This document shows positions 4,474 to 27,057 of a DNA stretch of 64,000 nt, piece by piece. Source of the stretch: Nitrosopumilus sp. (GTDB lineage: Archaea; Thermoproteota; Nitrososphaeria; Nitrososphaerales; Nitrosopumilaceae); the NCBI GenBank assembly GCA_965224195.1, contig OZ245040.1, forward strand, positions 1,440,001 through 1,504,000, read 5' to 3'. The stretch's first letter is position 1. Every line of letters starts with the position of its first letter. Made by a program: the position numbers and the translations under genes. A model generated the notes under the pieces. That model saw only the letters and a program-made list of their open reading frames with translations. It ran no database searches and was not told the DNA's origin.

Positions 4474-4475
4474 TA

Positions 4476-4702
4476 TTATTTTTTCTTTGATTTTGATTTT
4501 TTTGAAGAATTCGGAATTAGTCTATATTGTTCTTTTAGAATTTCCTTAAGATCTTTTTGTATATCAAAAACAGTTGAGAGCAATTCTTCTAGGGTTTTAG
4601 AATATTTACCATATGCATCTATCAGTTCGGTTTTCTTTTCATCAGATTTTGAAAGATATTCATTTGAACGTAACAAATTTGCAGATTCAATCATTTCAGG
4701 AA
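4476..4702 (-). pseudogene. 3' part of a coiled-coil host gene interrupted by the CRISPR-Cas island
   Basis: Reads PEMIESANLLRSNEYL... and joins in frame with 26812-26920 across the duplicated TTTCAGGAA. Confidence 0.8.
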
Positions 4703-4771
4703 AGGATGCTTGACGACTGAAACATCACAAATACCGTGATATGACCATGATATTAACAATCTTCATTTTCT

Positions 4772-4853
4772 CAGTCATAAGCTACAGTCATAAGCTAATT
4801 AACGAAATATCACAACCCAGTCATAAGCTAAATCACGGCTCAGTCATAAGCTA
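4772..4853 (+). repeat. Four copies of the 13-bp motif CAGTCATAAGCTA
   Basis: Exact copies at 4772, 4785, 4818 and 4841, about 70 bp inside the island's left end. Confidence 0.9.
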
Positions 4854-5465
4854 AACTATTTCATTATTTTTGTGTGATGATTTTTTTTGAGAATTTTCAT
4901 TAAGCGTATATTCATGCTCATTTTATGCTATTATCTTACACTGATTACATAGGTGTTTGACTGGATATTGTCATGCAGTGAATGATCATCTTCATTCTTC
5001 ATTTCTAATTACTCAAAATTGCATTAAAGTTTGTATACTTGATTGATTAATGTATATTGTCATACCCCATTCATTGCATCCATCTCAGATGGATTTGAAT
5101 TGTTTGACAAACGTCGACCTGATTGTAGAGTTGATCATTCTACAATCGCTTAATTTAGTAAGAAATATCGTGTCATCCCCAGATGATCATTTCCTGATAG
5201 CTGACAATTATGTTTCTGTGTGGAAGTGGGAATAGTCTTCATTTTCTTATATCACAAACTTTTTTTAAATATTATAATTTCAGTTACAATCAAAATAATT
5301 CCAATAATATAAAATACTATTCTTTGTATAATTCCATCCAATACCCATTCAAAGAATTGGTTTGTGGTAATTGGGGAATCTGGTTGAAACATAACAAACC
5401 TTGCAATTACAAGCAACATTAAAAAATTATAGAAAAATAATACTCCAATGGTTACAAACGCAGTT

Positions 5466-6115
5466 TCAAAAAAAATAACGGTATTGATTTATTGTGCCTC
5501 TTAATGTCGTCTTGTATTTGATTGCAATCCAGATCATGATCAAAGTTGGAAGTGCTATTAATGATAAAAAATAATTCAGATGGATTTTAAGATTATTAAA
5601 CATTAGAGGCTGCTGTTCCATTCCTTCGGCAGTACTAGTCCATTCACCGATACTGTATCTAGTATCCCATGAGTGAGAGAAATAGTTTGTCTGAGATACC
5701 AAAATCATCGTAAATAATACTGAATATGCAGATACAAGCGTTATTGTAGAAATTATCAGAGGTTTATTCCCCGTTGAGTTTGTAATCTTTTTTTGGATCA
5801 TAAAAGCTGCAAATCCTGCCACCACCCCAACAATAATCCCAGCCATTAGTCCCAGAACTTGAATAAATGGAATTACTAAAGATGCAACCTGTAATTACAC
5901 TCAATAACATCCCTGATGCTTTGATGCTTTTAGATGCCCATGAAAACAAGAACCAAGACATTAGAGAAAAAAATAAGAGTCAAGGTCATAACTATACTAG
6001 CACTAACTGAGAACCCATCTACCATAACTCTACCGCTTATATGAAATTGCAATACCTGAATCAAAGGTAGGATCACAAGAAACGCTGAAATTATCATCAA
6101 AAGTCTAGTTTTCAT
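5466..6115 (-). pseudogene. Frameshifted multi-pass membrane protein
   Basis: Three overlapping hydrophobic ORFs (5930-6115, 5764-5961, 5466-5846) beginning MKTRLLMII. Confidence 0.6.
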
Positions 6116-6125
6116 TTTCTTATTT

Positions 6126-6300
6126 TATTGAAAATAGTCTGTTCCACATTTAGGGCATTTTGACAAGTTTTTAGGATAGCGATGTTTGCAGTTAAAACAC
6201 ATCTAATTCATATTTTGGCCACGTGATTCTGAATCCTTTTTCCATAGAAAATAGACTATAACTGCAATTACTGCAACGCCTAGAATTATTGGTCATACCA
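6126..6300 (-). pseudogene. Remnant of a small membrane-anchored zinc-ribbon protein
   Basis: Minus strand encodes CFNCKHRYPKNLSKCPKCGTDYFQ, preceded by a disrupted hydrophobic segment. Confidence 0.4.
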
Positions 6301-6543
6301 TAAAACTACACAATACTTTGATCATAAATCTTTTATTATCAAGAATGATAACAATATTCAAAAAGGAATACCTACACTTTATGCATCAATTTATGAGTCC
6401 ATTTAAAAGTCAACTGAGAATTCTATTTAGTGCTACATTTATCAAAGATTGCCATTGTTCAACATAAAAAGGAATTTATAAAATAAAATATTAGAACATG
6501 CGAAAACAATTAAAATGATCATGTCCTAGATTAGTTGTTTTAG

Positions 6544-7893
6544 ATGCTAGCATATGAACTATTTCATAATAATAAGAATTCTCCTACAAATGATCAAAAA
6601 AGTCAATTTCCGATCAAGAAAATATTCTATAAACACAACAAAATCACAATTGATGAAAAAAAACTAGATGGTTATGGCTCAAAAACTACAAAAAAAACAA
6701 AACAATTACAAGAATGGCTACAAATGCCTTTGAATACCATTGATGTTCAAAAACTCAATTTACCTGATTTTAGAACAGGTAGTGCTGCAGTAAATCCATA
6801 CATTGAGGTTTATGGTTATTTGAAAACAACTAAACTTACCCTCTCAATTGGAAAAAAATCCAACAAAATTATTCATACTTTAGATTTTACCAATAATGAT
6901 AAAATTTCTTCTGATCCAAAGGAAAAAATCACATTAAAGTTAGATAAAAAAAATTATTTTTTAAACTCTAACACATTATTCTCAGAATATGTTTCCTCTG
7001 GAATTATAGATGATAATGGTTCTTTAAATGTCAAAGTGTATGATAAAATAATCCGAAAATTTCTAGAATCTGCAAAAAAACAGAAACCAGAGACTATTAA
7101 CAGATTTAATAGTGTATCATTCCGAATTTACATTTTACCTGATAACTCCACAATAGAATATCAAAAACAAACAAAAAAAGAAAATTCGGAGCAAACTACT
7201 TTTACTGATTATTTTGGAAATACTGTTTCAGAATATGCATCAACTCCCACAAAGAACACAAAATTCTTGACTTATGATGATCCTGCATTTTCCATAAACT
7301 GTATGAAAGAGAAGAATTTTTACAAAAATTTGGGCATTGGTGACAGCAGTTTAACAAAAGTATTTACTAATAAAACTAAAACATTTAAGATTTCTAATTT
7401 AGATTGGACTTTTTTTGATCTTGAAAATCCTGATTTCGAATTTAAGGAAACTGGAAAAGGCATATTGACACAGCTTTATGAAAACTATCGTAAGCTTTCA
7501 AAAGATAAAGGACCTACATCTCAATCACAACTAAAGGTAATTTGTATCAGAGAGAAATACGCAAAACAAGAGTTGTTAATTGACGAGAATTTGACAATGG
7601 ATAAAATGAAAAATATGTTTTCAAAATTCGAAGATATTCCTCCATCATGCTTAGAAGATGTGTTAATTGATAAATCTAACGAAAATCCTATTTGGAATAC
7701 GTATCTTTATGTTGTAAAGAACTTCCTTGCAGCAAATAAAATACCAAAAAATTACTTATTATCACATTTTAACAAGATACTAAAACAAAAAAGATATGAT
7801 TGGATAAAACTTGGAGATAAATCTGAACAAGAGAATTTTTTTCTAAAATCTGATTTTTGTTTAAAACATTTGTCTATATCAAATAACGCTTAA
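6544..7893 (+). CDS. cas8b: Type I-B Cascade large subunit Cas8b, N-terminal part
   Basis: 449-aa ORF heading the cas operon upstream of Csh2-type cas7. The call is mainly positional. Confidence 0.65.
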   Translation: MLAYELFHNNKNSPTNDQKSQFPIKKIFYKHNKITIDEKKLDGYGSKTTKKTKQLQEWLQMPLNTIDVQKLNLPDFRTGSAAVNPYIEVYGYLKTTKLTLSIGKKSNKIIHTLDFTNNDKISSDPKEKITLKLDKKNYFLNSNTLFSEYVSSGIIDDNGSLNVKVYDKIIRKFLESAKKQKPETINRFNSVSFRIYILPDNSTIEYQKQTKKENSEQTTFTDYFGNTVSEYASTPTKNTKFLTYDDPAFSINCMKEKNFYKNLGIGDSSLTKVFTNKTKTFKISNLDWTFFDLENPDFEFKETGKGILTQLYENYRKLSKDKGPTSQSQLKVICIREKYAKQELLIDENLTMDKMKNMFSKFEDIPPSCLEDVLIDKSNENPIWNTYLYVVKNFLAANKIPKNYLLSHFNKILKQKRYDWIKLGDKSEQENFFLKSDFCLKHLSISNNA

Positions 7894-7964
7894 TTTTTAA
7901 TTGTTATCAATCATGATAAGGTTCTGTGTAATCGTCGAGGGATAACATAAAATACGGATCTTCT

Positions 7965-9089
7965 TTAAATTGAATTTTCCTTATGTAAACTAGCATTTTG
8001 AATAATGGTTTTCCATTTGTTTTTACCATCTATTTCTACCATTGATGCTTCTGCTGGTGTTCTGCCTTGTAATGCTTCATGCTTTTTTGTGAAATTATAG
8101 TACACTTTCATTCCCTCACTAAGTGGTGTATCCATTCTTTTTAATCCTCTGAATACCTTTTCTCTGTCTCTAATCGTGCCATTGATTCGTTCCATCTTAT
8201 TATTATTATCACAGTCTCTTTTACCTGCAATGTGAATGTGTCTAACGTGGTTTGTGTCCTTTCCAAATACTTTCTTGCTTGATTTCATGTAGGCTTGTAA
8301 ACCGTCAGTAATGAAATTTCTTGGAGATTTCCCAGCTTGTCTTTTGGTTAACTCAAGTAAATTATCAGTATTATGATGAAACTTGTTGTCTGCCATGTCA
8401 CTAGCCAACCAATAGCGTGTATCATCATCCATACTTGCAAATAGGCAACATTGTTTCCCATCTACTTTAACCCATACTTCGTCAGCCCTAAACCAGTTCC
8501 CAACTCTTGGAACTATGCCATTAAGATAAACAGAAGTCATTTTAGAATATTGAGTTATCCAGTTGTAAATGGTCTTAAACGATACATCAACACCTAACAT
8601 CTCATAATGATCTGCAATCTTTCTTACGGACATTCCTGAATAATACATCTGTAATGCTCCAGTTATGGTATTCTCATTTGATTGTTTTTTCTCAAATCCA
8701 AAGTTTGAACTGAATTTCTTCCTGCAGTCCAAACACTCAAAGATTCTAACCTTACCTGACTTGTTCTTTCTGAATCTATCTTTTCTTATTCTACCTGAAT
8801 CGCAATACTTGCACAAAGATAGCTTACTTCTTTCCATAATTCGAAATATATTGTTTCTATAACACTTGTTTTTCTTGATTATCTCTAAGACTATTTTGAT
8901 GTGTTTGCAATCAGATTTTCTACAATTATGATCCTTGCATTGACATTTTAATCCATTTTCAGTTTTTGATACAATGTATCTGTTTTCTGGGGTTGATTGT
9001 GATCTAACGGAAAAACTGTTTTGGTCAATCTGTGAGCAGTAACCTACAATTTTCATCATGGATTGAGCTTTTTGTTTTCTTTGATTCAT
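7965..9089 (-). CDS. IS6/IS240-type DDE transposase with N-terminal SWIM-like and Zn-ribbon motifs
   Basis: CQC...CKH, CKYC/CLDC, HTH (GMSVRKIADH, TIYNWI), and ADEVWVK / ITDGL / NNKMERINGTIRDR catalytic segments. Confidence 0.9.
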   Translation of the reverse strand: MNQRKQKAQSMMKIVGYCSQIDQNSFSVRSQSTPENRYIVSKTENGLKCQCKDHNCRKSDCKHIKIVLEIIKKNKCYRNNIFRIMERSKLSLCKYCDSGRIRKDRFRKNKSGKVRIFECLDCRKKFSSNFGFEKKQSNENTITGALQMYYSGMSVRKIADHYEMLGVDVSFKTIYNWITQYSKMTSVYLNGIVPRVGNWFRADEVWVKVDGKQCCLFASMDDDTRYWLASDMADNKFHHNTDNLLELTKRQAGKSPRNFITDGLQAYMKSSKKVFGKDTNHVRHIHIAGKRDCDNNNKMERINGTIRDREKVFRGLKRMDTPLSEGMKVYYNFTKKHEALQGRTPAEASMVEIDGKNKWKTIIQNASLHKENSI

Positions 9090-9134
9090 ACATACACCTC
9101 AAAAATTAATAATAACTTGCAATAATACAAATAT

Positions 9135-9200
9135 GAGGGCTCAGATAGCTTTGCTGTCATCATACAGATGTCAGATCGCCAGAGACTCATCATAGCCCTC
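9135..9200 (-). ncRNA. Box C/D sRNA-like element upstream of the transposase
   Basis: Minus strand reads gagggct-ATGATGA-gtctctggcgat-CTGA-catctgt-ATGATGA-cagcaaagctat-CTGA-gccctc: consensus C, D', C' and D boxes, two 12-nt guides and a terminal stem. Confidence 0.8.
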
Positions 9201-9280
9201 AATTCTCTTGTATTTATGTAACTTATTATTAGTTAACATCTATAATAATATAACTAATATTAAGTTAAATTAAAATAGGA

Positions 9281-9520
9281 ATGAAGAAATGTAAAACTAT
9301 GACAATCTCAATTAAAACCATAAGACAGATAAATTATCTATATTTCTCATATTCTGATAATAAAACTCATAAGCAAAAATTCATTTGTTGTGGAGTAAGA
9401 TCAAAAAAAGAATCCAAGATTAAGGCATTGGAGCTTGAGCTCAATTATTTACAGGAACAAATAGCCTCATTTTTAAGAGAATCTAGTAAGATTAAGGATC
9501 AGTTACAAAATCTAAAATGA
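9281..9520 (+). CDS. Small basic protein divergent from the transposase (possible DNA-binding accessory protein)
   Basis: 79 aa with a beta-rich N-terminus (IKTIRQINYLYFSY) and coiled-coil C-terminus; lies inside the IS ends. Confidence 0.55.
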   Translation: MKKCKTMTISIKTIRQINYLYFSYSDNKTHKQKFICCGVRSKKESKIKALELELNYLQEQIASFLRESSKIKDQLQNLK

Positions 9521-9667
9521 ACGAGATGTTAACTTGGAGTAAAAAAATGTTCAAGTCTCAAAGATCACACATAACCCTGAAAATTCATTCATAAGTTTAC
9601 AAAATATGATCGACTTGTTTGATTTTACATCCGATACTATTATAAACAGAAATTAGAAAAATAAAAT

Positions 9668-9805
9668 ATGTCTCAAAAATACATTCCCAAATGGGGTGCT
9701 CTTCATACGCAGCAATCCGAAACATTTCAAAAAATATCCTCAAAGAAACACCAAACATGTTCAGATTACGGTGATTTTATGAAGTGGTTAGATGACAAAA
9801 AATAA
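9668..9805 (+). CDS. Putative antitoxin (45 aa)
   Basis: MSQKYIPKW...DYGDFMKWLDDKK; overlaps the start of the downstream toxin-like ORF; below the ORF-track length cutoff. Confidence 0.45.
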   Translation: MSQKYIPKWGALHTQQSETFQKISSKKHQTCSDYGDFMKWLDDKK

Positions 9806-10103
9806 AGCAATATGGAATATTGCTAAAATCCCCAGTTTTAGAAAAGATTTTCAAAATTTACGATTAGTCGAACAATGGAGAGTAAGTCATGCAATAAATA
9901 ATATGAGATATGTAAAAGATCCAACTAGATTATATCCTTATCCACAATGTGATAATTGTCCAAATAATATGTATCTTTTTGGAATTTCTGATGATGGTGT
10001 TGGTAATAAAGGATTAGAAATACAAATAATAGTTTCAAAGGATACTCATACTCTATACCCATTTAATTGCAGACATTCTACATTTGAAAAAAATGAAAAC
10101 TAG
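9792..10103 (+). CDS. Putative RelE/ParE-like toxin
   Basis: 103 aa; N-terminal W-x-I...PSFRKDFQNL...VSHAINNM...DP pattern resembles the RelE/ParE fold. Confidence 0.45.
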   Translation: MTKNKAIWNIAKIPSFRKDFQNLRLVEQWRVSHAINNMRYVKDPTRLYPYPQCDNCPNNMYLFGISDDGVGNKGLEIQIIVSKDTHTLYPFNCRHSTFEKNEN

Positions 10104-10327
10104 ACTAGAAAAAGCAAGATATCAAACTTCACAAATTTATCCAAAACTTTTACAACTACATGATATTTTAGAAAAAATTAAATGTTATAGTAAGCGATAT
10201 AGTTTTGGTCTCAACAGAATATTTTGTCGTTAGAAAATATGTTAAAAAAATGTTCAAGTCTCAAAGATCACACATAACCCATGATAACAACCTTTATTTC
10301 TAATGGGAGAACGTAGTAATTATTAAT

Positions 10328-10663
10328 TTGCTAATAATAAATCAAAATGAGGAATTTGCAGAAAAAATTGGCCAGATTGCTAGAATTTACATAGAATTTA
10401 AACAGGATCATGACGAAAATGATAATTCTTTATCTGATATTTTGACTTACTCAAAATACGATCGGGAAAAACTACGTTTTGTCGTAAAACGTGTAGGACT
10501 GGGTGTGCAATTATCTAAAATCATAGATGCATCTAAAAAAGATGTGACAAAAAATATCAGCCGTTTACAACCTAAAGAAGAAATTGAAGATGATGTGGCA
10601 TCAAAGGATTATTCATATTTCTTTTTTAAGGGATATTATACTAACATGGAGAAAGTAGCATGA
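10328..10663 (+). CDS. Cas8b C-terminal / Cas11-like small subunit
   Basis: Helical 111-aa ORF ending YFFFKGYY, overlapping the cas7 start (ATGA); start codon uncertain. Confidence 0.65.
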   Translation: MLIINQNEEFAEKIGQIARIYIEFKQDHDENDNSLSDILTYSKYDREKLRFVVKRVGLGVQLSKIIDASKKDVTKNISRLQPKEEIEDDVASKDYSYFFFKGYYTNMEKVA

Positions 10664-11589
10664 CTACTGAAATCTTGTTCTACTATGAATCAATGCAGAA
10701 TCCAAATGGCGATCCTGGATTTGAAAATCAACCGAGGTTGATGCCTGATGATACTATAATGGTAACTGATGTACGAATCAAGCGAACTATGCGAGATTAT
10801 GCAAGAGATGTAAAAGGCGAAACATTGTTTGTAGATTATGATAAAAATGGTAATGCAATCGCAGCAGACGGCAAAGCCGAAGAGATTACAGGTTCTCTTA
10901 GCGGAGATGTAATTGGAAAACTATTAGAAAAAACATTTGATGTACCTCTTTTTGGTGCACTTGTACCAATAAGGAAGAAAGGTTCTGACAATGAAGGCAG
11001 TTCAGAAAAATTGACAGGCCCATTACAATTTGGAATTTCTAGAAGTGTAAATAGAGTTCAGATAATTAATCCAACCATCGTTGGTAGATTTGTTGGCAAA
11101 GAAAAGACAAAAGGAAAACAATTTTCTACATTTGGAAAATTCTACTCTGTAGAGTATGCGCTAATTAAGGTGCAGGGAGCGATAAACCCTAGAAACTTGA
11201 CAAAATATGCAGACGATAAAACAATAATGAAGAAATTCACTGAAAAAGTATCTATGATTCATGACTGTTTGTGGAATGGCACAAATCAGTTAATCACAAG
11301 ATCAAAGTATCCACAACGAAGCATCCTCTATATTGATGTGGACTATAAAGACAGAATCTATAATGACTTGCCAAAGCTAGTTGATGAAAACCAATCTCTT
11401 AAAGAAATGGCAAAAAGTCTTGGTGATTCACCGTTTATTTTCTCAAATCTAATTGATATAATGTCAAAGAGAAAATCTGAAGTTAATATAATTAGAATTC
11501 GTGGTGCTGAAGATATTTCAGATGATGTACAGAATTTGGCATCAGACTTAGAAAAGAAAGGGCTCAAAGTAGAAATTCTTTCGGATTGA
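10660..11589 (+). CDS. cas7: Type I-B Cas7 (Csh2)
   Basis: NPNGDP...NQPR, VTDVRIKRTMRDY, DVPLFGA, TGPLQF. Confidence 0.95.
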   Translation: MTTEILFYYESMQNPNGDPGFENQPRLMPDDTIMVTDVRIKRTMRDYARDVKGETLFVDYDKNGNAIAADGKAEEITGSLSGDVIGKLLEKTFDVPLFGALVPIRKKGSDNEGSSEKLTGPLQFGISRSVNRVQIINPTIVGRFVGKEKTKGKQFSTFGKFYSVEYALIKVQGAINPRNLTKYADDKTIMKKFTEKVSMIHDCLWNGTNQLITRSKYPQRSILYIDVDYKDRIYNDLPKLVDENQSLKEMAKSLGDSPFIFSNLIDIMSKRKSEVNIIRIRGAEDISDDVQNLASDLEKKGLKVEILSD

Positions 11590-12323
11590 AACTAATTTCA
11601 TTTAGGATTTCAGGCGCGTTTGCAGCATTTAGAGATCCATCTGTTACATCAAACCAAACCGTATACTACATCCCATCAAAAAGTGCAATTGTTGGAATGT
11701 TGGGTGCAATGATTGGAATCAGACGATCAGATAATCTAGGTGAAATATACAGTGAAGAATTTAGGGAGTTTTTTAGAAATACCAAAATCGGCATACAGTT
11801 TGAATCTGACCCTAGAAAAGTAGTGTTCTTCACAAACCATCGCTCACTAAAGGAACCAAAGACAAAACCATTCAAAACTGAACTGGTCGAAAAACCACAA
11901 TATACTATCTATGTAATTACTGATGACGAGAGCTCTGAAAAACTTTCAAATGCAATAAAGAAAAATGGGTTTGTATTTTCTCCCTATCTTGGACATGCAT
12001 ATTGCCAAGCTACCGTTTCTGATTTTAAAGAAACTGATGTTCAAGAAGTTAATTCAGAAGGTGAGAAAACACAATGTGTGGTATTAGATGAATCAGAAAC
12101 ATACAATCCTGATTTTAAATTAATATTGATACAATCTTCTCAAAATGGATCTGTCATAATTGAAAGACATACTCATCATTTTTTCATTGATGAAAAATTT
12201 GATGGTCGCGTGTTGAAACACTGGATTCCTGTAAATAATTCAGAGTTTAAAATTAAAACAGATCAAGCAAGGAGCTTATCTAAGTTTTATAAGGTTGGAG
12301 GCCATGTTGTCTGCATGTACTAG
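11586..12323 (+). CDS. cas5: Cas5 (type I-B)
   Basis: F-x-ISGAFAAFRDP...YYIPSKSAIVGMLGAMIG and PYLG motifs. Confidence 0.95.
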   Translation: MKLISFRISGAFAAFRDPSVTSNQTVYYIPSKSAIVGMLGAMIGIRRSDNLGEIYSEEFREFFRNTKIGIQFESDPRKVVFFTNHRSLKEPKTKPFKTELVEKPQYTIYVITDDESSEKLSNAIKKNGFVFSPYLGHAYCQATVSDFKETDVQEVNSEGEKTQCVVLDESETYNPDFKLILIQSSQNGSVIIERHTHHFFIDEKFDGRVLKHWIPVNNSEFKIKTDQARSLSKFYKVGGHVVCMY

Positions 12324-16216: not shown

Positions 16217-16509
16217 AAAAGAATATGTATTATGCAATTTATGATATCACTGATAATTCTACACGAAGCTCAGTTATTCATATACTAAAAAATCAGGGAT
16301 TTATCAGGATTCAAAAAAGTGTTTTTTGTGGAAGTCTGTCTGGACAAAATAAAAAAGATTTGATTGAATCTATAAAAATAATTGTAAATGAAAATGATTC
16401 TTTTTATTTAATTCTTGCATGCAACCAGTGTTTTGGCAAGATCAAAATAATTGGCAAGGGATTTGACAAGGAATATGTTTCAGATAAAAAGCCTGCTGTT
16501 GTACTATGA
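16213..16509 (+). CDS. cas2: Cas2
   Basis: YDITDN...RIQKSVF. Confidence 0.95.
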   Translation: MKKNMYYAIYDITDNSTRSSVIHILKNQGFIRIQKSVFCGSLSGQNKKDLIESIKIIVNENDSFYLILACNQCFGKIKIIGKGFDKEYVSDKKPAVVL

Positions 16510-17099
16510 TTTCACCGCTAACTGTTACTGATGTCGTGGAATATGCTTTTTGTCCAAAATTTACATATTTTATTAATGTTTTGGGTTTGGAACAGTTTGA
16601 ACAAAAGAGGGGAACTGTAACTGCAGGACGTAAATTACACAACAAACATGAAAAAGACAATCTAAGATATGTTCCACAAGAATTTTCTGGAAAGAAAATT
16701 GTTGCACGAAAATTCTTTTCAGCAAAATATGGATTGTTAGGTAAGATAGACGAGGCAATTGAAATGGACAATGAGATAGTGCTAATTGAGCGAAAATACA
16801 GTGACAATCATAAAATATATCCTGCACTAAAAGTTCAGTTGGGATTGCTCTCTGTGTTGATTGAAGAGAATTTGCACAAACCTGTACAAAAGGCAATTGT
16901 AGTTTTTAGCAAAACCGAGAGAAAGGAGATTCATTTTAAAATTGATGATTTGATAAAAAAAGATTCATTAGCAATGCTTGAGAATGTAAAAAAAGTAATC
17001 AAAAATGAAATAATGCCAGAGTCTAACTTTGATAACCGCTGTCTGAATTGTTGTTTTAGAAGAGTTTGCCCTACCAGCTCTTTAAATACAATGGAATAA
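16506..17099 (+). CDS. cas4: Cas4
   Basis: FCPK, GKID, ERK, QLG and C-terminal C-x2-C-x5-C Fe-S cysteines. Confidence 0.95.
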   Translation: MISPLTVTDVVEYAFCPKFTYFINVLGLEQFEQKRGTVTAGRKLHNKHEKDNLRYVPQEFSGKKIVARKFFSAKYGLLGKIDEAIEMDNEIVLIERKYSDNHKIYPALKVQLGLLSVLIEENLHKPVQKAIVVFSKTERKEIHFKIDDLIKKDSLAMLENVKKVIKNEIMPESNFDNRCLNCCFRRVCPTSSLNTME

Positions 17100-17180
17100 T
17101 ATGTCAAGACCATGAAATTGTGAATGAAAATACAATAAAAATGAATAAAAACATGTGTAAATCATGACGTAACAGTTACA
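17100..17180 (+). promoter_or_regulatory. CRISPR leader
   Basis: 81-bp AT-rich stretch between cas4 and the first repeat. The repeat's 3' ATTGAAAC implies + strand transcription. Confidence 0.65.
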
Positions 17181-20100
17181 GTCAAAATGACAAATCCATC
17201 ATAACAAGGATTGAAACTTGCAGATTTGGGCGGATGGACTACATCTACAGAAGTCAAAATGACAAATCCATCATAACAAGGATTGAAACTACTATATTCC
17301 TTCTAGTGCAGAGTATGAAGATTTGTGTCAAAATGACAAATCCATCATAACAAGGATTGAAACATTTAGTTTACGCTAACTATGAATACAATGAAAGGTC
17401 AAAATGACAAATCCATCATAACAAGGATTGAAACGTGTAATCGATTTGCACACCGGCGCAGAAATTGCCAGTCAAAATGACAAATCCATCATAACAAGGA
17501 TTGAAACTTCCGATAATGTCATCTTTTCGCGTTTGGAAATTGTCAAAATGACAAATCCATCATAACAAGGATTGAAACAAAATATCATGACGGATATTGT
17601 AACTCTCATATGCGGTCAAAATGACAAATCCATCATAACAAGGATTGAAACGTCAGGTACGGAATGTTAACATATGAATATACTAAGTCAAAATGACAAA
17701 TCCATCATAACAAGGATTGAAACATTGGTAGGGGCTTGTCATCAGTTATGCCAAGATGTCAAAATGACAAATCCATCATAACAAGGATTGAAACTTTACT
17801 GCTGTTAAATAAATTGATGGTTGCCTAGCAGTCAAAATGACAAATCCATCATAACAAGGATTGAAACTTGTTAGTGTGGCAAAATACAAACGTGGACTAA
17901 AAAGTCAAAATGACAAATCCATCATAACAAGGATTGAAACCGCGTTATTTTCCGGCGGCAAGGATTCCATGACAACGGGTCAAAATGACAAATCCATCAT
18001 AACAAGGATTGAAACGACATTATTGCCCACACCTATAATCAAACCTCCTAGTCAAAATGACAAATCCATCATAACAAGGATTGAAACCTAAGAGAATAGA
18101 GCGTGTTGGTACCGTCAATTAGGTCAAAATGACAAATCCATCATAACAAGGATTGAAACCACACTGGCGCAACGATTGCATCTGATATACTCGTGTCAAA
18201 ATGACAAATCCATCATAACAAGGATTGAAACATTCAGGATGTGATGGGCAAGACAAAGGATACAGAGTCAAAATGACAAATCCATCATAACAAGGATTGA
18301 AACGATATATTTCTGTGGGTTTTGCTTGTGAGAATTGAGTCAAAATGACAAATCCATCATAACAAGGATTGAAACTGACTTTACTGTACATCATAATTTC
18401 TCTCCCGCATTGTCAAAATGACAAATCCATCATAACAAGGATTGAAACTCTACGACGTCTTGCTCGAAAGCATCTCTCACTGCAGTCAAAATGACAAATC
18501 CATCATAACAAGGATTGAAACTAAATTCCATGCAAAATATCCAGATGCTGGTACCAGGTCAAAATGACAAATCCATCATAACAAGGATTGAAACTTTCCC
18601 ATTGCAATGTATCCTTTTGCTGACGTCGGGTCAAAATGACAAATCCATCATAACAAGGATTGAAACTTGAATATCTTGGATGGCCTCTTGGGTCTTCAAG
18701 TAAGTCAAAATGACAAATCCATCATAACAAGGATTGAAACCTCTGCAGCCATCAGTAGTCACCGTCTCCGCTAGAGTCAAAATGACAAATCCATCATAAC
18801 AAGGATTGAAACTTATGGATGATTTCGATAACAAAGTCTACGTCTACAGTCAAAATGACAAATCCATCATAACAAGGATTGAAACCAATCTGTAGGGTCC
18901 ACAGTAGAAGTGAACCAGTATGTCAAAATGACAAATCCATCATAACAAGGATTGAAACTTGTAGTGTAGAGTGCTGTTTTTTGCATCGTGTCAAGTCAAA
19001 ATGACAAATCCATCATAACAAGGATTGAAACTTCCAGGTACCATATGTCCTTTCGAGAATACTCGTTTTCCGTTTAAAAGTCAAAATGACAAATCCATCA
19101 TAACAAGGATTGAAACTTGCCTGGCTCCAGGTATTTCGGTCTGCTATGAATTGCATTGATCGAGTCAAAATGACAAATCCATCATAACAAGGATTGAAAC
19201 AAGGTGTAATATCGCAAGATGATATTATAGCTGGAATAGGTCAAAATGACAAATCCATCATAACAAGGATTGAAACTTTGACTTGCTACCAAAACAGTAG
19301 CATGGACATACTAGGTCAAAATGACAAATCCATCATAACAAGGATTGAAACTCTCAAACTGAGTATCCCCATTTGCCTGAAAGAGGAAGTCAAAATGACA
19401 AATCCATCATAACAAGGATTGAAACTTTGCTTGATTTTGTGGGCAGAAACTGTGGCAGCCAAAGTCAAAATGACAAATCCATCATAACAAGGATTGAAAC
19501 CAAAGTCTACACGACATCAGCCACAGTAGGTAAATGTCAAAATGACAAATCCATCATAACAAGGATTGAAACTGAAATTGAAATTCCTATCGACTTTGCA
19601 TTAATCCGAGTCAAAATGACAAATCCATCATAACAAGGATTGAAACTGTTACGGATGATGCCAAAGACAAAATCTACGTCTGTCAAAATGACAAATCCAT
19701 CATAACAAGGATTGAAACAACAGTCCTTGTCTGCCTTTAAAGGAATACCTTATGTCAAAATGACAAATCCATCATAACAAGGATTGAAACGTAATAATGT
19801 GCAAGGCATGCATGACATAACAAACGTCAAAATGACAAATCCATCATAACAAGGATTGAAACTCCCGATGCCAATCTGTTGCAGCATGTTCTCTCAGGTC
19901 AAAATGACAAATCCATCATAACAAGGATTGAAACAGGCAGACGTCTTTGATTTGACAGGTTTCTTATTTTGTCAAAATGACAAATCCATCATAACAAGGA
20001 TTGAAACTGAGAAGTCATGGATTATCAACTGACACTGTTACAGTCAAAATGACAAATCCATCATAACAAGGATTGAAACTCTAAGATGATATCTGGCAGT

Positions 20101-23100
20101 TCTTCGATTTTCATGTCAAAATGACAAATCCATCATAACAAGGATTGAAACTGATATCTAACGTCATGATATCACAGCCTGCGTTGTCAAAATGACAAAT
20201 CCATCATAACAAGGATTGAAACCTATGCATAGGCATATTTTTGCTATACCTAGAAAAGTCAAAATGACAAATCCATCATAACAAGGATTGAAACATGTTG
20301 ATGCACTAAGACCTGTGGACTCATATTACGTCAAAATGACAAATCCATCATAACAAGGATTGAAACATACGGAAAAAGAAGCCCGATTATTTTGGGCTAC
20401 TTACGGTGTCAAAATGACAAATCCATCATAACAAGGATTGAAACGATGCCAAGTCAATGCCGTACATGAACCGATGATCAGTCAAAATGACAAATCCATC
20501 ATAACAAGGATTGAAACACGATTGTTCCCTTTCTGTATTCTTCCTGCTCTGAGTCAAAATGACAAATCCATCATAACAAGGATTGAAACAGACGCGAATG
20601 AGACAGCTTGAAGGATTTCAAAGAATGTCAAAATGACAAATCCATCATAACAAGGATTGAAACTTTGCCTGCCGCCTCTTCTTTTTGTCTTTCCATCTTC
20701 GTCAAAATGACAAATCCATCATAACAAGGATTGAAACCGACAATAAGAACTGATGATATTATTAAATCAGCTGCAAGTCAAAATGACAAATCCATCATAA
20801 CAAGGATTGAAACCGCCTAGCATTGCATACGACAGAACTATAACGAGTCAAAATGACAAATCCATCATAACAAGGATTGAAACAACTGATATTTCGACTG
20901 ACATTAACGGCGTGTTGAAGTCAAAATGACAAATCCATCATAACAAGGATTGAAACCCGATGACAATGATGTAACAATGCACATCACACGCAGTCAAAAT
21001 GACAAATCCATCATAACAAGGATTGAAACTCGTTGCCAAGAAAATACCACAACGAAGTACCTACCGTGTCAAAATGACAAATCCATCATAACAAGGATTG
21101 AAACCAGGTTTGCACCTCTCAGGTCTGCGTTTTGCAGGTTGTCAAAATGACAAATCCATCATAACAAGGATTGAAACCGATTGAAGCGCCGGTCTTTGTA
21201 TCGTCATATGTTGTCAAAATGACAAATCCATCATAACAAGGATTGAAACATATTATCACAGCTATATAGGCTGCCTTTAGCTGACCTTGTCAAAATGACA
21301 AATCCATCATAACAAGGATTGAAACACAGCGGGTCCAGTCTGGCTAGGTTGGGAAATCTGTAGTCAAAATGACAAATCCATCATAACAAGGATTGAAACA
21401 TAGAAATTCCAAAGATACTGTTGTTATCTACAGGTCAAAATGACAAATCCATCATAACAAGGATTGAAACCACCGACTCCAAAATGATATAGGTATAGCC
21501 TTGTCAAAATGACAAATCCATCATAACAAGGATTGAAACAATTGAAGGCTTTGTTAGTTTTCTTGATATTTTCAGTCAAAATGACAAATCCATCATAACA
21601 AGGATTGAAACACGTTGCTTACGGCTTGGTGCCATTTTCCTGCCACAGGTCAAAATGACAAATCCATCATAACAAGGATTGAAACATTATGCAGGTGAGG
21701 ACGTATATCAATCGCCAAGTCAAAATGACAAATCCATCATAACAAGGATTGAAACTACATATCATCACTATGACACGTATTGCAAATTCTGGGTCAAAAT
21801 GACAAATCCATCATAACAAGGATTGAAACCATGTGCTGCTGTTACTTCTGCTGCTGATGCTGCTGTCAAAATGACAAATCCATCATAACAAGGATTGAAA
21901 CTACAGAAGAACGGATGCAACGCCGCGAAACTCTACGGTCAAAATGACAAATCCATCATAACAAGGATTGAAACATTCGGCCATAGTCATAGTGTTATAG
22001 TGCTGTTGGGTCAAAATGACAAATCCATCATAACAAGGATTGAAACACGATAGTCCGTTTTCTGACCCAGATTTTATTTTAGGTCAAAATGACAAATCCA
22101 TCATAACAAGGATTGAAACCGAAAACAATCATCTGTGTATATGTCTGACGTGGCGGTCAAAATGACAAATCCATCATAACAAGGATTGAAACTTAAATCT
22201 GCCAAGTGAACCAAGTCCGCCATTGCGAGTCAAAATGACAAATCCATCATAACAAGGATTGAAACTTTGTGGACCTGATTTATAATTTATAATCCTACGA
22301 GGTCAAAATGACAAATCCATCATAACAAGGATTGAAACCTAGATAATCTAGGTTATTGGACTGATAATAGATGCAGTCAAAATGACAAATCCATCATAAC
22401 AAGGATTGAAACTATTGACTAATCAATGAGCTCAACAGAAACATTCCATGTCAAAATGACAAATCCATCATAACAAGGATTGAAACACAAGTGAACCAAT
22501 TATTATGTTAAGATGGATGACAGTCAAAATGACAAATCCATCATAACAAGGATTGAAACTTGTTGTAAGAAATGTTACGGCTCTGCCACCTTTTGGTCAA
22601 AATGACAAATCCATCATAACAAGGATTGAAACCAATTACTACAGATGTATACGGACTGATGTACATGGTCAAAATGACAAATCCATCATAACAAGGATTG
22701 AAACATGGTACCTGGGCAATTAGATCAAATCGCAGCAGCGGTCAAAATGACAAATCCATCATAACAAGGATTGAAACTCAGGTTTGCACCTTGCAGATAT
22801 GCACCTATCAGGTCAAAATGACAAATCCATCATAACAAGGATTGAAACACGTATCAGCTTACATCACTGACGGTACAAGAACAGTCAAAATGACAAATCC
22901 ATCATAACAAGGATTGAAACAACGGAAACATATCAACGAGGTGGGAACGGCAGAAGTCAAAATGACAAATCCATCATAACAAGGATTGAAACACGGCAAT
23001 TTGGTTGGTACCTTTTTTTTATTAGGCCAGGTCAAAATGACAAATCCATCATAACAAGGATTGAAACTGGCTTTGCACGACACCATGGGATTGCGCCAGG

Positions 23101-26100
23101 AGAAGTCAAAATGACAAATCCATCATAACAAGGATTGAAACATTGAACGCAGTGTTGGAACTGTATCATCTGTAAAAGTCAAAATGACAAATCCATCATA
23201 ACAAGGATTGAAACACACGACGGATAATAAATTACAAGAGTGGCCCCCAAAGTCAAAATGACAAATCCATCATAACAAGGATTGAAACGGTTGGAATCGA
23301 ATCGTGTTCTAGACATACAGCGTTGTCAAAATGACAAATCCATCATAACAAGGATTGAAACCGTTAAAAATGCAAAAAGTGCTGCACTTGTAGACACAGT
23401 CAAAATGACAAATCCATCATAACAAGGATTGAAACTACCGAAGAACGGATACAACGCCAAGAAAATCTGTGTCAAAATGACAAATCCATCATAACAAGGA
23501 TTGAAACATTTTGACGCGTGTATGTTTTCGATTATTACATTATGTCAAAATGACAAATCCATCATAACAAGGATTGAAACCGTTGCCAGCTTGTAAATGG
23601 CTTGATTTTGTTCATGTCAAAATGACAAATCCATCATAACAAGGATTGAAACACAACATAATCGTTGGGTAAAAATTAACATCGCCAATGTCAAAATGAC
23701 AAATCCATCATAACAAGGATTGAAACTCTACGACCTCTGGCTCAAATGCATCTCTCACCGCAGTCAAAATGACAAATCCATCATAACAAGGATTGAAACC
23801 AACAATGTGACAAAAAAATGGAAAATGGGCCCAAGTCAAAATGACAAATCCATCATAACAAGGATTGAAACTTCGTGCAAAACATCAATTATCATTTTGT
23901 TACCAAGGTCAAAATGACAAATCCATCATAACAAGGATTGAAACAATGACTAATGTAACATTATCACAAAAAGTAACAAAGTCAAAATGACAAATCCATC
24001 ATAACAAGGATTGAAACTCCGTACGAATAAACCAACGCTCGTATCGGTCATGTCAAAATGACAAATCCATCATAACAAGGATTGAAACTAATTTAATTCG
24101 TGTTTGATCAACAGCTACAGAAGGTAGTCAAAATGACAAATCCATCATAACAAGGATTGAAACTTGTATGATCTTTCAAAGTCATAGGGTGTCAGCATAG
24201 TCAAAATGACAAATCCATCATAACAAGGATTGAAACTTAGTTGTATTAGATTTCAGTGTTCTTGCTATACTGTCAAAATGACAAATCCATCATAACAAGG
24301 ATTGAAACGGATGGCTTGCTTCTTTTGTACGCTTTTACCGAAGTCAAAATGACAAATCCATCATAACAAGGATTGAAACTGAATGGCATTGATCGAGGAT
24401 CCATTAGATTTCCTTGTCAAAATGACAAATCCATCATAACAAGGATTGAAACAAGACACCTGGCGTGGGCGATAGAATCGAATCTGAAAAAGTCAAAATG
24501 ACAAATCCATCATAACAAGGATTGAAACATTATTTTTCCTATCTCGTTGAAATTAACTTCTAAGTCAAAATGACAAATCCATCATAACAAGGATTGAAAC
24601 TGGATAATCATGAAGGCGACATTATGCGTGATATAGTCAAAATGACAAATCCATCATAACAAGGATTGAAACAGAAGAAATGAATCAGTCATTCTTGTTT
24701 GGGCCTCTGTCAAAATGACAAATCCATCATAACAAGGATTGAAACTTGGTTCAGAATTTTCATCTAGGATGCTCAACTAAGTCAAAATGACAAATCCATC
24801 ATAACAAGGATTGAAACTGTGAAAAGTCATCCATTTTTCTTTTGTTTTTTATTCGCTGTCAAAATGACAAATCCATCATAACAAGGATTGAAACTCACAC
24901 ACCTCATGGCCATTTCACCTTTTCCATGTCAAAATGACAAATCCATCATAACAAGGATTGAAACTGTTGTTGTAATGTTACGACTTCATCGAACATTTGA
25001 AGAGTCAAAATGACAAATCCATCATAACAAGGATTGAAACCGACTTCAGGAACGCGAGCTATACAGGCTTGGCTAGGTCAAAATGACAAATCCATCATAA
25101 CAAGGATTGAAACTGCAGGAATGTACGGAAAGTTCCCACGCAACTGCCAGTCAAAATGACAAATCCATCATAACAAGGATTGAAACCATTGAATTAATCA
25201 AAAAAAATATGGGATTACCCAAAGTCAAAATGACAAATCCATCATAACAAGGATTGAAACACAAGCTCTGCTCCTAATCCTGGTGCTACTTCTGCTGTCA
25301 AAATGACAAATCCATCATAACAAGGATTGAAACTGTGATCATATTCATCTCTATGTCTGCCGTGCTCCAAGTCAAAATGACAAATCCATCATAACAAGGA
25401 TTGAAACCATTGTCTCCATCAGGCCAGGAAACATTTCCAAAGGTCAAAATGACAAATCCATCATAACAAGGATTGAAACGCTTTAACTCCCAGTTCTTCC
25501 ATCATTGCAATTCGTAGTCAAAATGACAAATCCATCATAACAAGGATTGAAACTGAGATGATATATTTGCCAAGATTTGGGTAATATGGTCAAAATGACA
25601 AATCCATCATAACAAGGATTGAAACATTTGGGTGACTCAAACTATGAGGAGCTGTACATGCAGGTCAAAATGACAAATCCATCATAACAAGGATTGAAAC
25701 ATGTAGTATTATCATCAATCAAATTTCATTTCCCCAGGTCAAAATGACAAATCCATCATAACAAGGATTGAAACTTCACTATCAGGGATATTCAGGTCCC
25801 TTATTTTTGTGTCAAAATGACAAATCCATCATAACAAGGATTGAAACCAGCGTGAAAAAGAATATCGACAAAGACCAGATGGTCAAAATGACAAATCCAT
25901 CATAACAAGGATTGAAACGATGTACAAATCGAATCAAACAATGCGGCACGTATAGTCAAAATGACAAATCCATCATAACAAGGATTGAAACCGTATGCCT
26001 CAGTATTTTGCATTCGGGTTCTTAGGGTCAAAATGACAAATCCATCATAACAAGGATTGAAACATGGGAACAACTAGTCCACAAATACAAATCTCCACGG

Positions 26101-26783
26101 TCAAAATGACAAATCCATCATAACAAGGATTGAAACAGGACACCCTAAAGGCAACTGACCCAAAGTTTACGGGGTCAAAATGACAAATCCATCATAACAA
26201 GGATTGAAACTGGCCTTGCACGACACCATGGGATTGCGCCAGGAAAGTCAAAATGACAAATCCATCATAACAAGGATTGAAACATTTCTTTGTCAAGCTG
26301 AATTAATTCGATTCTGTGTCAAAATGACAAATCCATCATAACAAGGATTGAAACATAAGTTCCCATCCCCTATTGCCATTCCCTCAGGTCAAAATGACAA
26401 ATCCATCATAACAAGGATTGAAACGGATGAATGACAGCACTGTCGGGCCGCCACTTGATAGTCAAAATGACAAATCCATCATAACAAGGATTGAAACTCA
26501 GAGCAAGAAAACTACCGAAAGGGAACAATCAGTCAAAATGACAAATCCATCATAACAAGGATTGAAACAGCAATATCGATAAAAAGATTGCAATTCCAAA
26601 AGGTCAAAATGACAAATCCATCATAACAAGGATTGAAACAACATTCCTTGACGCCCTTTGAAGGTATATCTTATGTCAAAATGACAAATCCATCATAACA
26701 AGGATTGAAACTATCCGATTGTTCCATCTGATGAATATCTCATGTTGTCAAAATGACAAATCCATCATAACAAGGATTGAAAC
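17181..26783 (+). CRISPR. CRISPR array, 37-bp repeat GTCAAAATGACAAATCCATCATAACAAGGATTGAAAC, ~132 repeats / ~131 spacers (32-48 bp, mostly 34-38)
   Basis: Manual count. Repeats look invariant including the last one; AATCC/GGATT hairpin; ATTGAAAC 3' handle. Confidence 0.99.
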
Positions 26784-26811
26784 ATTAGATAGACACATCA
26801 CAAATACCATC

Positions 26812-26920
26812 TTTCAGGAATATTCTTTGCAGGCTACCCCAGTTGTTCTAAATCAAATTGTATTTCTTGAATTTTCTTCTGTAAATCATAGGTAATTTCT
26901 CCAGCACCAATATTTGTCAA
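26812..26920 (-). pseudogene. 5' part of the host gene interrupted by the island
   Basis: TTG start; MTNIGAGEITYDLQKKIQEIQFDLEQLG*PAKNIPE, in frame with MIESANLL at 4694. Confidence 0.75.
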
Positions 26921-27057
26921 TATAAAATCACGGGATTATTAACGAATTAAAGATTTTCTAAAGAGTACAAATAATGAAAAACATTCATGCAAAAAAGAGC
27001 CTAAATGAAGTATAATTTGGAAACAACCTATAAACAAAATAAAAATACAAAAAACCC

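What the first reader, a model, noticed from the sequence alone, without database searches (positions are those of the whole stretch)
4694..26920. Entire type I-B CRISPR-Cas locus inserted as one 22-kb unit into a host gene, with a 9-bp direct repeat and no dedicated integrase
Seen: a minus-strand gene starts at 26920 (MTNIGAGE...KNIPE) and resumes in frame at 4694 (MIESANLL...). TTTCAGGAA occurs at both junctions, and removing 4703-26820 restores a ~108-codon frame; one TAG in the 5' half suggests later decay. A 14-bp direct repeat, ACATCACAAATACC, sits near both ends. The array's last, still perfect, repeat ends only 28 bp from the right junction. The only recombinases inside are Cas1 and an IS6 transposase that has its own separate 8-bp TSD. 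Inference: a mobile CRISPR cassette, moved either by transposition with a 9-bp TSD or by site-specific recombination at a 9-bp att core using an enzyme supplied in trans or since lost. It does not match Tn7-like CASTs (5-bp TSD, tns genes) or casposons (polB, TIRs).
Basis: partly seen in the sequence, partly recalled or inferred. Interest (0 to 1): 0.8.

Follow-up and report, generated by a model that had tools for sequence, protein, structure and literature searches.

The report
Integrase-less integrated element carrying CRISPR-Cas
A complete type I-B CRISPR-Cas locus sits in this Nitrosopumilus genome as a 22-kb integrated mobile element that split a small host gene; its ends match a family of elements moved by a tyrosine recombinase, but its own recombinase gene is gone.

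Summary
Bases 4703-26820 (22,118 bp) are an insertion. All 11 relatives' loci examined carry the two flanks side by side, as one small gene with one copy of the site.

The 9-mer is best read as an att core, not a target-site duplication. Three related elements (8.5, 11.7 and 12.4 kb), each with a clean empty site in this genome, are flanked by the same core, TTTCWGGAW. The left arm is shared: core, about 19 nt, 14-mer, GTGATAT.ACCATGATAT, then four iterons. In relatives it lies about 0.6 kb upstream of a 450-aa protein that folds as a tyrosine recombinase. That gene is absent from the element and from this genome. There are no terminal inverted repeats.

A sister genome carries the homologous cas cassette in a 13.4-kb element with its own tyrosine recombinase and a different att. 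cas8b here is split by an IS6-type unit.

Thaumarchaeal integrated elements carrying I-B CRISPR-Cas are already in print (PMC6563490). This is an integrase-less variant.

The parts
4476..4693 (-). 3' fragment of the split host gene (72-aa ORF as listed, 4476-4694)
   Evidence: One search lists the ORF. It is collinear with residues 37-111 of the intact G015 orthologue.
4694..4702 (+). Left copy of the att core, TTTCAGGAA (attL crossover region)
   Evidence: Homology to the host in relatives ends here. Homology to related elements begins at its TTC.
4703..26820 (+). The inserted element, 22,118 bp, counted with one core copy
   Evidence: Empty sites in 11 of 11 relatives' loci examined.
4722..4753 (+). 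Left arm: the 14-mer ACATCACAAATACC followed by GTGATATGACCATGATAT
   Evidence: It is conserved in G144, G158 (two copies) and G069, upstream of their recombinase genes.
4772..4853 (+). Four perfect direct iterons, CAGTCATAAGCTA
   Evidence: One search finds only these 4 copies in the genome. Iterons at the same positions but of element-specific sequence occur in G158, G069 and G144.
5466..5846 (-). 126-aa ORF of unknown function, hydrophobic on my reading; part of the non-cas 'backbone' 4703-6537
   Evidence: No Pfam hit. No homology to the other cas cassettes.
6544..7893 (+). cas8b, N-terminal part (truncated by the IS unit)
   Evidence: tblastn of the intact 563-aa G158 Cas8b: residues 1-452, 67% identity.
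7920..10279 (-). IS6-type unit: transposase at 7965-9089, ends GGTTCTGTG / CACATAACC, and an extra copy of the right end at 9540-9577. It is flanked by the 8-bp duplication CATGATAA (7912-7919 and 10280-10287).
   Evidence: (D12).
10328..10663 (+). cas8b, C-terminal part
   Evidence: Residues 456-563 of G158 Cas8b, 73% identity.
10660..11589 (+). cas7
   Evidence: PF05107, 2.2e-36.
11586..12323 (+). cas5
   Evidence: PF09704, 4.2e-12.
12295..14622 (+). cas3 (HD plus helicase)
   Evidence: TIGR01587, 6.9e-41; TIGR01596, 2.1e-17.
14607..15257 (+). cas6b
   Evidence: PF17262 and PF17955.
15254..16216 (+). cas1
   Evidence: TIGR00287, 8.5e-69.
16213..16509 (+). cas2
   Evidence: TIGR01573, 2.2e-12.
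16506..17099 (+). cas4
   Evidence: PF01930, 7.5e-13.
17181..26783 (+). CRISPR array: 132 identical 37-nt repeats and 131 spacers. I place the leader at 17100-17180.
26795..26808 (+). Right arm: second copy of the 14-mer. Its ATCAC lies 10 nt before the core, as at attR of G003 and G113.
26812..26820 (+). Right copy of the att core, TTTCAGGAA (attR)
26821..26920 (-). 5' fragment of the split host gene, with TTG start at 26918-26920 and an in-frame TAG at 26834-26836
   Evidence: Compared with G015 and ten other orthologues.

Best explanation
Bases 4703-26820 are an integrated mobile element. It entered the middle of a conserved ~110-aa host gene by site-specific recombination, catalysed by a tyrosine recombinase of a Nitrosopumilaceae-restricted family. 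That family shows no Pfam domain and, where a source gives a name, almost only 'hypothetical protein'.

Recombination took place between a short core on the element (TTTCAGGAA) and a matching host site. This is why one core copy lies at each junction. The element keeps the family's recombination arms:
- Left: core, 19 nt, the 14-mer, GTGATAT.ACCATGATAT, then four iterons.
- Right: the 14-mer, 3 nt, then the core.

The recombinase gene lies about 0.6 kb inside attL in relatives and is no longer present here. About 92% of the element is one cargo: a full type I-B cas operon and a 131-spacer array.

The element now looks stranded:
- There is no cognate integrase in the genome.
- cas8b has been split by an IS6-type insertion.
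- The orphaned 5' gene fragment has picked up a stop codon.

Shown: the insertion, its exact borders, homology of its ends to integrase-bearing elements, the conserved core at independent sites, and the recombinase fold. Inferred: that this recombinase family made the insertion, that the arms and iterons are its binding sites, and when the gene was lost (before or after integration).
For: 1. Empty sites. The flanks are contiguous in G015, where the two matches overlap by 7 bp, and in all 11 relatives' loci examined.

2. A conserved core at independent sites. Three elements each have both flanks adjacent in G000, with overlaps of 8, 9 and 12 bp:
- G069: 8.5 kb, direct repeat TATTCTGGAAT.
- G003: 11.7 kb, TTTCTGGAAA, next to tRNA-Ala.
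- G113:C8: 12.4 kb, TTTTCTGGATTAC.

3. Homology of the left arm.
- Window 4734-4874 is 77% identical to one G158 locus and 69% to another.
- A five-way alignment with G144, G158 (two copies) and G069 has 71% mean column identity, starting at the TTC of the core. Sequence to the left of the core is unrelated.
- Each element has its own iteron sequence at the same positions.

4. The recombinase.
- In all these relatives the arm lies about 0.6 kb upstream of a 450-aa ORF.
- Its model (pLDDT 74) matches Tn1549 Int, XerA, XerH, Cre and lambda Int at Foldseek probability 1.00 and E from 2.8e-4.
- R249, R407, H408 and Y440 are invariant in 7 sequences.

5. The right end. ATCAC lies 10 nt before TTTCWGGA in G000, G003 and G113. 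G069 has GTCAT at the same distance.

6. No terminal inverted repeats. The local alignment score of 14 equals the shuffle mean of 14.2, and 305 of 500 shuffles reach it. The direct 17-nt match scores 29, which 2 of 500 shuffles reach.

7. A comparator. In G113:C1 the homologous cas8b-to-array cassette lies in a 13.4-kb insertion.
- It is flanked by an approximately 11-bp direct repeat, T(A/T)TTTTTAAAA. The two copies differ at one base.
- It has an empty site in G000.
- Its own 405-aa protein folds as a tyrosine recombinase (Cre, XerA, lambda Int; E from 3.6e-4).

8. Precedent in print. Thaumarchaeal cryptic integrated elements with I-B CRISPR-Cas, and att sites as short as 8 bp (PMC6563490, sections 6 and 15 read).
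Against: - No recombinase of the family is in the element or the genome. tblastn of 7 family members gives only weak C-terminal hits at C1:180.8-181.2 kb, to a different recombinase. The enzyme's role is therefore inferred from relatives.
- No sibling with the same iterons plus an integrase was found in genome contigs or metagenome contigs.
- The direct (not inverted) 14-mers either side of the core are not the usual core-site geometry of tyrosine recombinases. Their role is unknown.
- G158's junction reads TTCCTGAA, which departs from the consensus. Right ends could not be defined for G158, G144 or G166.
- The genome holds 216 TTTCNGGAA sites, so the core alone cannot explain the choice of site.
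- Foldseek TM-scores are low (0.3-0.5). A sequence profile found no recombinase in the PDB and Pfam finds none.
Confidence: 0.8

Rival explanations
1. The element is still mobile. It would be a non-autonomous, att-flanked cassette that excises and integrates when a family recombinase is supplied in trans by a co-resident element or strain.
For: - The arms are pristine: two identical 14-mers, two identical cores and four perfect iterons.
- In run X22 the flank contig (depth 104.6) ends exactly at 4702, and the element contig (depth 59.2) starts at 4673. That is a 30-nt overlap, the signature of a branch in a k=31 graph exactly at the crossover, with no re-merging. In X21 one contig runs through.
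Against: - No family recombinase was found in this genome.
- The alternative path in X22 was not displayed, so an empty site is inferred and not seen.
- Depths inside the element also differ (59 against 76), so the depth drop is weak evidence.
- The 5' gene fragment carries a stop codon and cas8b an IS. Both suggest residence for some time.
Confidence: 0.2
2. Transposition: a DDE-type transposase acting in trans inserted the unit and made a 9-bp target-site duplication.
For: - A short perfect direct repeat lies at the borders, and there is no recombinase inside.
- The genome is rich in IS copies.
Against: - There are no terminal inverted repeats.
- The 'duplication' has the same sequence, TTTCWGGAW, at four independent sites, which a TSD would not.
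- The end is homologous to regions next to tyrosine recombinase genes.
Confidence: 0.04
3. IS6/IS26-type mobilisation of the cassette, by a cointegrate or a translocatable unit.
For: An IS6-family transposase lies inside the unit.
Against: - The IS unit is internal, with its own 8-bp duplication inside cas8b.
- No IS6 end lies at either border of the 22-kb unit.
Confidence: 0.01
4. Cas1-driven (casposon-like) integration of the locus.
For: Cas1, Cas2 and Cas4 are encoded.
Against: - No TIRs and no polB among the listed ORFs.
- The repeat is 9 bp. I recall casposon TSDs as about 14-15 bp.
- The ends match a tyrosine-recombinase element family.
Confidence: 0.01

Closest known systems
[quoted passage not shown] 2019, PMC6563490; sections 5, 6, 13 and 15 read)
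   Same: - It is integrated in a thaumarchaeal chromosome.
- It has short att direct repeats; the paper reports 8 bp and up.
- It carries a complete I-B cas set plus an array as cargo.
- Protein-coding genes can be targets.
   Different: - There is no integrase, which the paper treats as the defining CIE gene.
- The host genus is Nitrosopumilus, not Nitrososphaera.
- Insertion is in the first third of the gene and destroys it. The paper describes insertions in 3'-distal regions.
- Cargo is almost only CRISPR-Cas.
- The paper's supplementary tables could not be seen. Whether this integrase family or this core is listed there is unknown.
The TTTCWGGAW-targeting Nitrosopumilus elements defined here (G069 8.5 kb, G003 11.7 kb, G113:C8 12.4 kb; attL only in G158 twice and G144)
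   Same: The core sequence, the attL arm layout, the iteron positions, the attR spacing, and direct repeats of 9-13 bp.
   Different: - Those elements carry the 450-aa tyrosine recombinase and cargo with almost no Pfam assignment.
- This one lacks the recombinase and carries CRISPR-Cas.
G113:C1 13.4-kb element (L098 about 10348-23770)
   Same: - The cas8b-to-array cassette is homologous: Cas7 is 78% identical and the repeat differs at 1 of 37 bases.
- It has a short direct repeat and a clean empty site.
   Different: - It has its own 405-aa tyrosine recombinase of another family directly upstream of cas8b.
- Its att is T(A/T)TTTTTAAAA.
- Its iteron-like repeats lie at the right end.
CIMEs, the cis-mobilisable, att-flanked, integrase-less derivatives of integrative elements described in streptococci (recalled; no paper read here)
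   Same: It is flanked by attL and attR of an integrase-driven family, but has no recombination module.
   Different: - This element is archaeal and its cargo is a defence system.
- Mobilisation in trans has not been shown.
Tn7-like CRISPR-associated transposons and casposons
   Same: CRISPR-related genes lie on a mobile unit.
   Different: - Against CASTs: no tns genes, and Cas3 and the adaptation genes are present.
- Against casposons: no polB and no TIRs.
- The repeat is a conserved core, not a TSD.

Membership tests
Tyrosine-recombinase integrated element (CIE as defined in PMC6563490) | Precise insertion flanked by direct repeats (attL and attR), relative to an empty site in relatives | tested here: met
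   There is a 9-bp repeat, and 11 of 11 relatives' loci examined are empty.
Tyrosine-recombinase integrated element (CIE as defined in PMC6563490) | Encodes an integrase of the tyrosine recombinase superfamily | tested here: not met
   There is no hit in the element by Pfam or NCBIfam, or by tblastn of either recombinase family.
TTTCWGGAW-core element family (defined here) | The core TTTCWGGAW is duplicated at both junctions | tested here: met
TTTCWGGAW-core element family (defined here) | attL arm: about 19 nt, a 14-mer, GTGATAT.ACCATGATAT, then 4-5 iterons | tested here: met
   (71% mean column identity over 5 sequences).
TTTCWGGAW-core element family (defined here) | attR: ATCAC 10 nt before the core | tested here: met
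   Present in G000, G003 and G113; G069 has GTCAT instead.
TTTCWGGAW-core element family (defined here) | A 450-aa wHTH-tyrosine recombinase about 0.6 kb inside attL | tested here: not met
Type I-B CRISPR-Cas | cas8b, cas7, cas5, cas3, cas6b, cas1, cas2 and cas4, plus an array | tested here: met
   cas8b is identified only by homology to the intact genes of relatives, and it is split by an IS. The subtype name follows Cas6b and the gene order, and is my reading.
Casposon | Terminal inverted repeats, polB, and a Cas1-type integrase | tested here: not met
   No TIRs and no polB among the ORFs. Cas1 lies in a standard adaptation module.
Tn7-like CAST | tnsA/B/C and tniQ genes, and 5-bp TSDs (the features themselves are recalled) | tested here: not met
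   The ORF list and family scans show none. The repeat is 9 bp.
IS6 pseudo-compound transposon | IS6 copies or ends at the borders of the mobilised unit | tested here: not met
CIME-like non-autonomous integrative element | Mobilised by a related element's integrase | not testable with these tools
   There is only the hint from the contig break in run X22.

The most novel reading that the evidence does not exclude
The I-B CRISPR-Cas locus of Nitrosopumilus may be a modular, exchangeable cargo that rides on at least two unrelated tyrosine-recombinase backbones. In this genome it may survive as a non-autonomous att-flanked cassette that is still polymorphic in a natural population, with occupied and empty alleles. 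That would mean it is excised or integrated in trans by recombinases of co-resident elements: a trans-mobilisable immune system in ammonia-oxidising archaea.
Probability: 0.2. Interest if true: 0.6.

Novelty: new variant of a known kind. Interest (0 to 1): 0.45.

Why it matters
- It gives base-pair-exact borders for horizontal movement of a whole CRISPR-Cas system in marine ammonia-oxidising archaea.
- It ties that movement to a recombinase family that carries no Pfam domain and, where a source gives a name, almost only 'hypothetical protein' (70 clusters).
- It defines that family's short core, TTTCWGGAW.
- It shows that integrase-based screens for integrated elements would miss such cassettes.
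- It shows the same cas cassette on different backbones at different chromosomal sites within one genus. This fits CRISPR-Cas being traded as mobile cargo rather than inherited vertically.

Tried and rejected
Spacer targets. The 131 spacers were compared with the G000 genome and all fetched loci. There were no hits outside the array itself, except one 24-nt, 92% match. No shared spacers with G158, G113 or G149 were found.

Arm-pattern scan of 151 genus genomes.
- 36 genomes have a match at up to 2 mismatches.
- All 19 two-mismatch loci fetched lack iterons.
- The one-mismatch hit in G142 also lacks them.
- Only G000, G069, G144 and G158 (two copies) are real.

G144. A match of the G000 left flank 24 kb from the G144 integrase proved to be the ordinary intact host gene, not a second insertion at this site.

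Right ends. None could be defined for G158 (both copies abut a 157-bp repeated sequence), for G144b or for G166.

Recombinase detection by sequence.
- Pfam and NCBIfam give no recombinase hit for either family.
- A PDB profile search returned only a wHTH repressor at E = 0.26.
- The assignment therefore rests on fold and conserved residues.

A sibling with G000's iterons. There were 0 records in genome contigs and 0 in metagenome contigs. The arm pattern found only the G144 record in genome contigs, and nothing in metagenome contigs.

Reads. The element (22.1 kb) is longer than the 20-kb limit of read laying, so no read or contig could be seen to join the two flanks. Twenty of the 24 runs listed hold shares of at most 0.08, and X24 has no share on record. 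X24 was laid; the 20 low-share runs were not. I draw no habitat conclusion.

Other points.
- The resemblance of the left end (CGACTGAAAC) to the CRISPR repeat's 3' end was judged chance, because relatives have other letters there.
- GC content does not mark the element as foreign: 0.27-0.36 against 0.336 for the genome.
- The supplementary tables of PMC6563490 were not available.

Full report
**1. What is there**

The window holds birA (3466-4473; PF03099) and a TPR-metalloprotease gene (27058-28485). Between them lie 22.1 kb that relatives lack.

The left flank (3700-4702) and the right flank (26812-27800) each match 22 of 24 same-genus genomes drawn. In the closest relative, G015 (85-87% identity), the left match ends at C38:18621 and the right match starts at 18615, so the flanks abut there. 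G015 has an intact 111-aa minus-strand ORF with one site, CATTTCAGGCATATTC.

I examined the 11 best loci, L002-L012.
- All 11 have the two gene halves adjacent, with a single site.
- 10 of 11 give an uninterrupted ORF of 91-111 aa within the extracted span.
- L004 gives 50 aa.

The host gene has no family assignment.

In G000 the gene is cut after codon 36.
- The 5' fragment is 26920-26821. It has a TTG start and a TAG at codon 29, where relatives have Asp or Glu.
- The 3' fragment is 4693-4476.
- TTTCAGGAA stands at both junctions.

**2. Interior**

| Coordinates | Feature |
|---|---|
| 4703-6537 | Non-cas 'backbone': arm, four iterons, small ORFs without family hits |
| 6544-7893 and 10328-10663 | The two halves of cas8b |
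| 7920-10279 | IS6-type unit separating them |
| 10660-17099 | cas7, cas5, cas3, cas6b, cas1, cas2, cas4, all open |
| 17181-26783 | 132 repeats with an identical 37-mer, and 131 spacers |
| 26784-26811 | 28 nt holding the second 14-mer |

The IS6-type unit has the duplication CATGATAA, ends GGTTCTGTG / CACATAACC, and a second copy of its right end at 9540-9577.

GC content is like the rest of the genome.

**3. What kind of end is this**

The 14-mer occurs exactly twice in 2.07 Mb. The iteron occurs only four times, all in this block.

The first 140 nt inside the left junction match two loci of G158, at 77% and 69%. In both loci the block lies about 590 nt upstream of a 458-aa ORF. Homologues of that ORF occur in 9 of 150 other genus genomes and not in G000.

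Upstream of them the layout recurs:
- a junction motif (TTTCTGGAA in G003 and G166, TTCTGGAA in G069 and G144, TTTCTGGAT in G113, TTCCTGAA in G158);
- then about 19 nt;
- then an arm;
- then 3-5 iterons whose sequence is specific to each element.

A five-way alignment (G000, G144, G158 twice, G069) is conserved from the TTC of the core rightwards, with 71% mean column identity. It is unrelated to the left of the core.

**4. The relatives are true insertions with the same core**

For G069, G003 and G113:C8 a second copy of the junction motif lies 8.5, 11.7 and 12.4 kb downstream. In all three, both flanks map side by side in G000, overlapping by 8, 9 and 12 bp.

The junctions read as follows:

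| Element | Direct repeat | Note |
|---|---|---|
| G069 | TATTCTGGAAT | |
| G003 | TTTCTGGAAA | abuts tRNA-Ala |
| G113:C8 | TTTTCTGGATTAC | |
| G000 | TTTCAGGAA | |

Four independent sites share the sequence TTTCWGGAW. That is what an att core looks like. It is not what a target-site duplication looks like.

At the right ends, ATCAC lies 10 nt before the core in G000, G003 and G113.

G000's ends have no inverted repeat: the score of 14 equals the shuffle mean, and 305 of 500 shuffles reach it.

**5. The enzyme**

The 450-aa protein has no Pfam or NCBIfam hit. A profile search found no PDB sequence match beyond a wHTH.

An AlphaFold model from 7 sequences (pLDDT 74) matches Tn1549 Int, XerA, XerH, Cre, lambda Int and TelA. 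Foldseek probability is 1.00, with E from 2.8e-4 and TM 0.3-0.5.

R249, R407, H408 and Y440 are invariant. The residue 10 before the Tyr is H, or W in one member. Reading these as the catalytic set of tyrosine recombinases is my own assignment.

The family has 70 clusters among 5.8 billion proteins. Where a source gives a name it is almost always 'hypothetical protein', and none has a Pfam domain.

G000 has seven other PF00589 matches elsewhere, but none belongs to this family.

**6. The cas cassette on other backbones**

Related Cas7 occurs in 12 of 150 other genus genomes. Four loci were fetched.

- **G113:C1.** The cassette lies in a 13.4-kb insertion with a clean empty site at G000 C1:963615-963625. 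It is flanked by an approximately 11-bp direct repeat, T(A/T)TTTTTAAAA, whose two copies differ at one base. A 405-aa ORF sits directly upstream of cas8b. That ORF folds as a tyrosine recombinase: Cre, XerA and lambda Int, with E from 3.6e-4. Its family is annotated only as HTH proteins.
- **G158.** The last repeat lies 20 nt from host DNA. Those 20 nt (CACATCTACAATAC…) resemble G000's 14-mer. The left side is rearranged by an IS.
- **G149 and G140.** The flanks correspond to yet other G000 regions.

The cassette therefore sits at a different chromosomal place in each of the five genomes.

**7. Mechanism**

The most likely route is that a circular form, carrying attP, recombined with the host site inside the small gene. 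The attP would read: …14-mer, ATC, TTTCAGGAA, AGGATG…, 14-mer, arm, iterons.

The recombinase gene has since been lost, or was already missing so that the enzyme came from another element.

The iterons could be arm-type recombinase sites or a replication origin. This is not decided.

**8. Is it still moving?**

Contigs of two runs were laid on 3000-22999.
- In X21 one contig of depth 354 spans 3000-9569.
- In X22 the flank contig (depth 104.6) ends exactly at 4702, and the element contig (59.2) begins at 4673.

Such a 30-nt overlap is what a branch in a k=31 graph gives, and the branch lies at the first base of the element. The other path was not among the rows shown. An unoccupied allele in that sample is therefore a hint, not a finding.

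Three things argue against recent activity here: the stop codon in the 5' fragment, the IS in cas8b, and the lack of a cognate recombinase.

**9. Comparison with what is known**

Krupovic et al. 2019 (PMC6563490; I read sections 5, 6, 13 and 15 and searched passages) describe 74 thaumarchaeal integrated elements.
- Their att sites are as short as 8 bp.
- Some integrate into protein genes.
- Two cryptic integrated elements of Nitrososphaera (NitVie-E4 and NitEve-E4) carry full I-B CRISPR-Cas.
- They treat the integrase as the defining gene of such elements.

Two full-text searches found no paper describing an integrase-less CRISPR-Cas element in Nitrosopumilus or the TTTCWGGAW core. The paper's supplementary tables could not be read.

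**10. Verdict**

The element is an integrase-less variant of a known kind. Interest is moderate.

Noticed in passing
G000 contig C2 (7,434 bp; outside the window): A small separate contig with GC 31% and no megablast match to the chromosome. It carries a 633-aa ORF (2946-4847) with an FDVES-type motif, which might mark a protein-primed family-B polymerase. It could be a small extrachromosomal or viral element. No spacer of the array matches it.
   Followed up: partly
window 7920-10279: The IS6-type unit in cas8b carries two identical 38-nt copies of its right end (9540-9577 and 10243-10280), with a 103-aa ORF (9792-10103) between them. It looks as if the IS had captured 0.7 kb behind a second end.
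   Followed up: partly
window 20520-20554 / 26496-26530, and 23068-23099 / 26211-26241: Two spacers are 89% complementary to each other, so they come from the same target on opposite strands. Two others are nearly identical (31 of 32).
   Followed up: no
L098 about 10348-23770 (G113:C1): A 13.4-kb integrated element made of little more than a tyrosine recombinase, a full I-B cas operon, a 46-repeat array and about 400 nt of GTGACA-type repeats. It is flanked by an approximately 11-bp direct repeat, T(A/T)TTTTTAAAA, and has a clean empty site in G000.
   Followed up: yes
G000 C1:179980-181189 (outside the window): A homologue of the G113 cas-element recombinase, in two reading frames (40% and 62% identity). 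It is probably frameshifted and lies next to an IS copy at 181215-182278.
   Followed up: no
L054 1313-1469 and L057 (G158): Both G158 copies of the recombinase element abut a 157-bp sequence ending in TTCCTGAA. That sequence recurs at least twice more in G158 as part of a longer repeat. The element seems to have inserted into a repeated sequence and then been duplicated with it.
   Followed up: partly
window 4673-4702, run X22: A contig break falls exactly at the attL crossover, with a drop in depth from 104.6 to 59.2, in one public run but not in another run from the same study.
   Followed up: partly
window 6089-6124: A motif of about 36 nt upstream of cas8b recurs at 85-100% identity at many places in G113, G158 and G076. 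Its nature is unknown.
   Followed up: no
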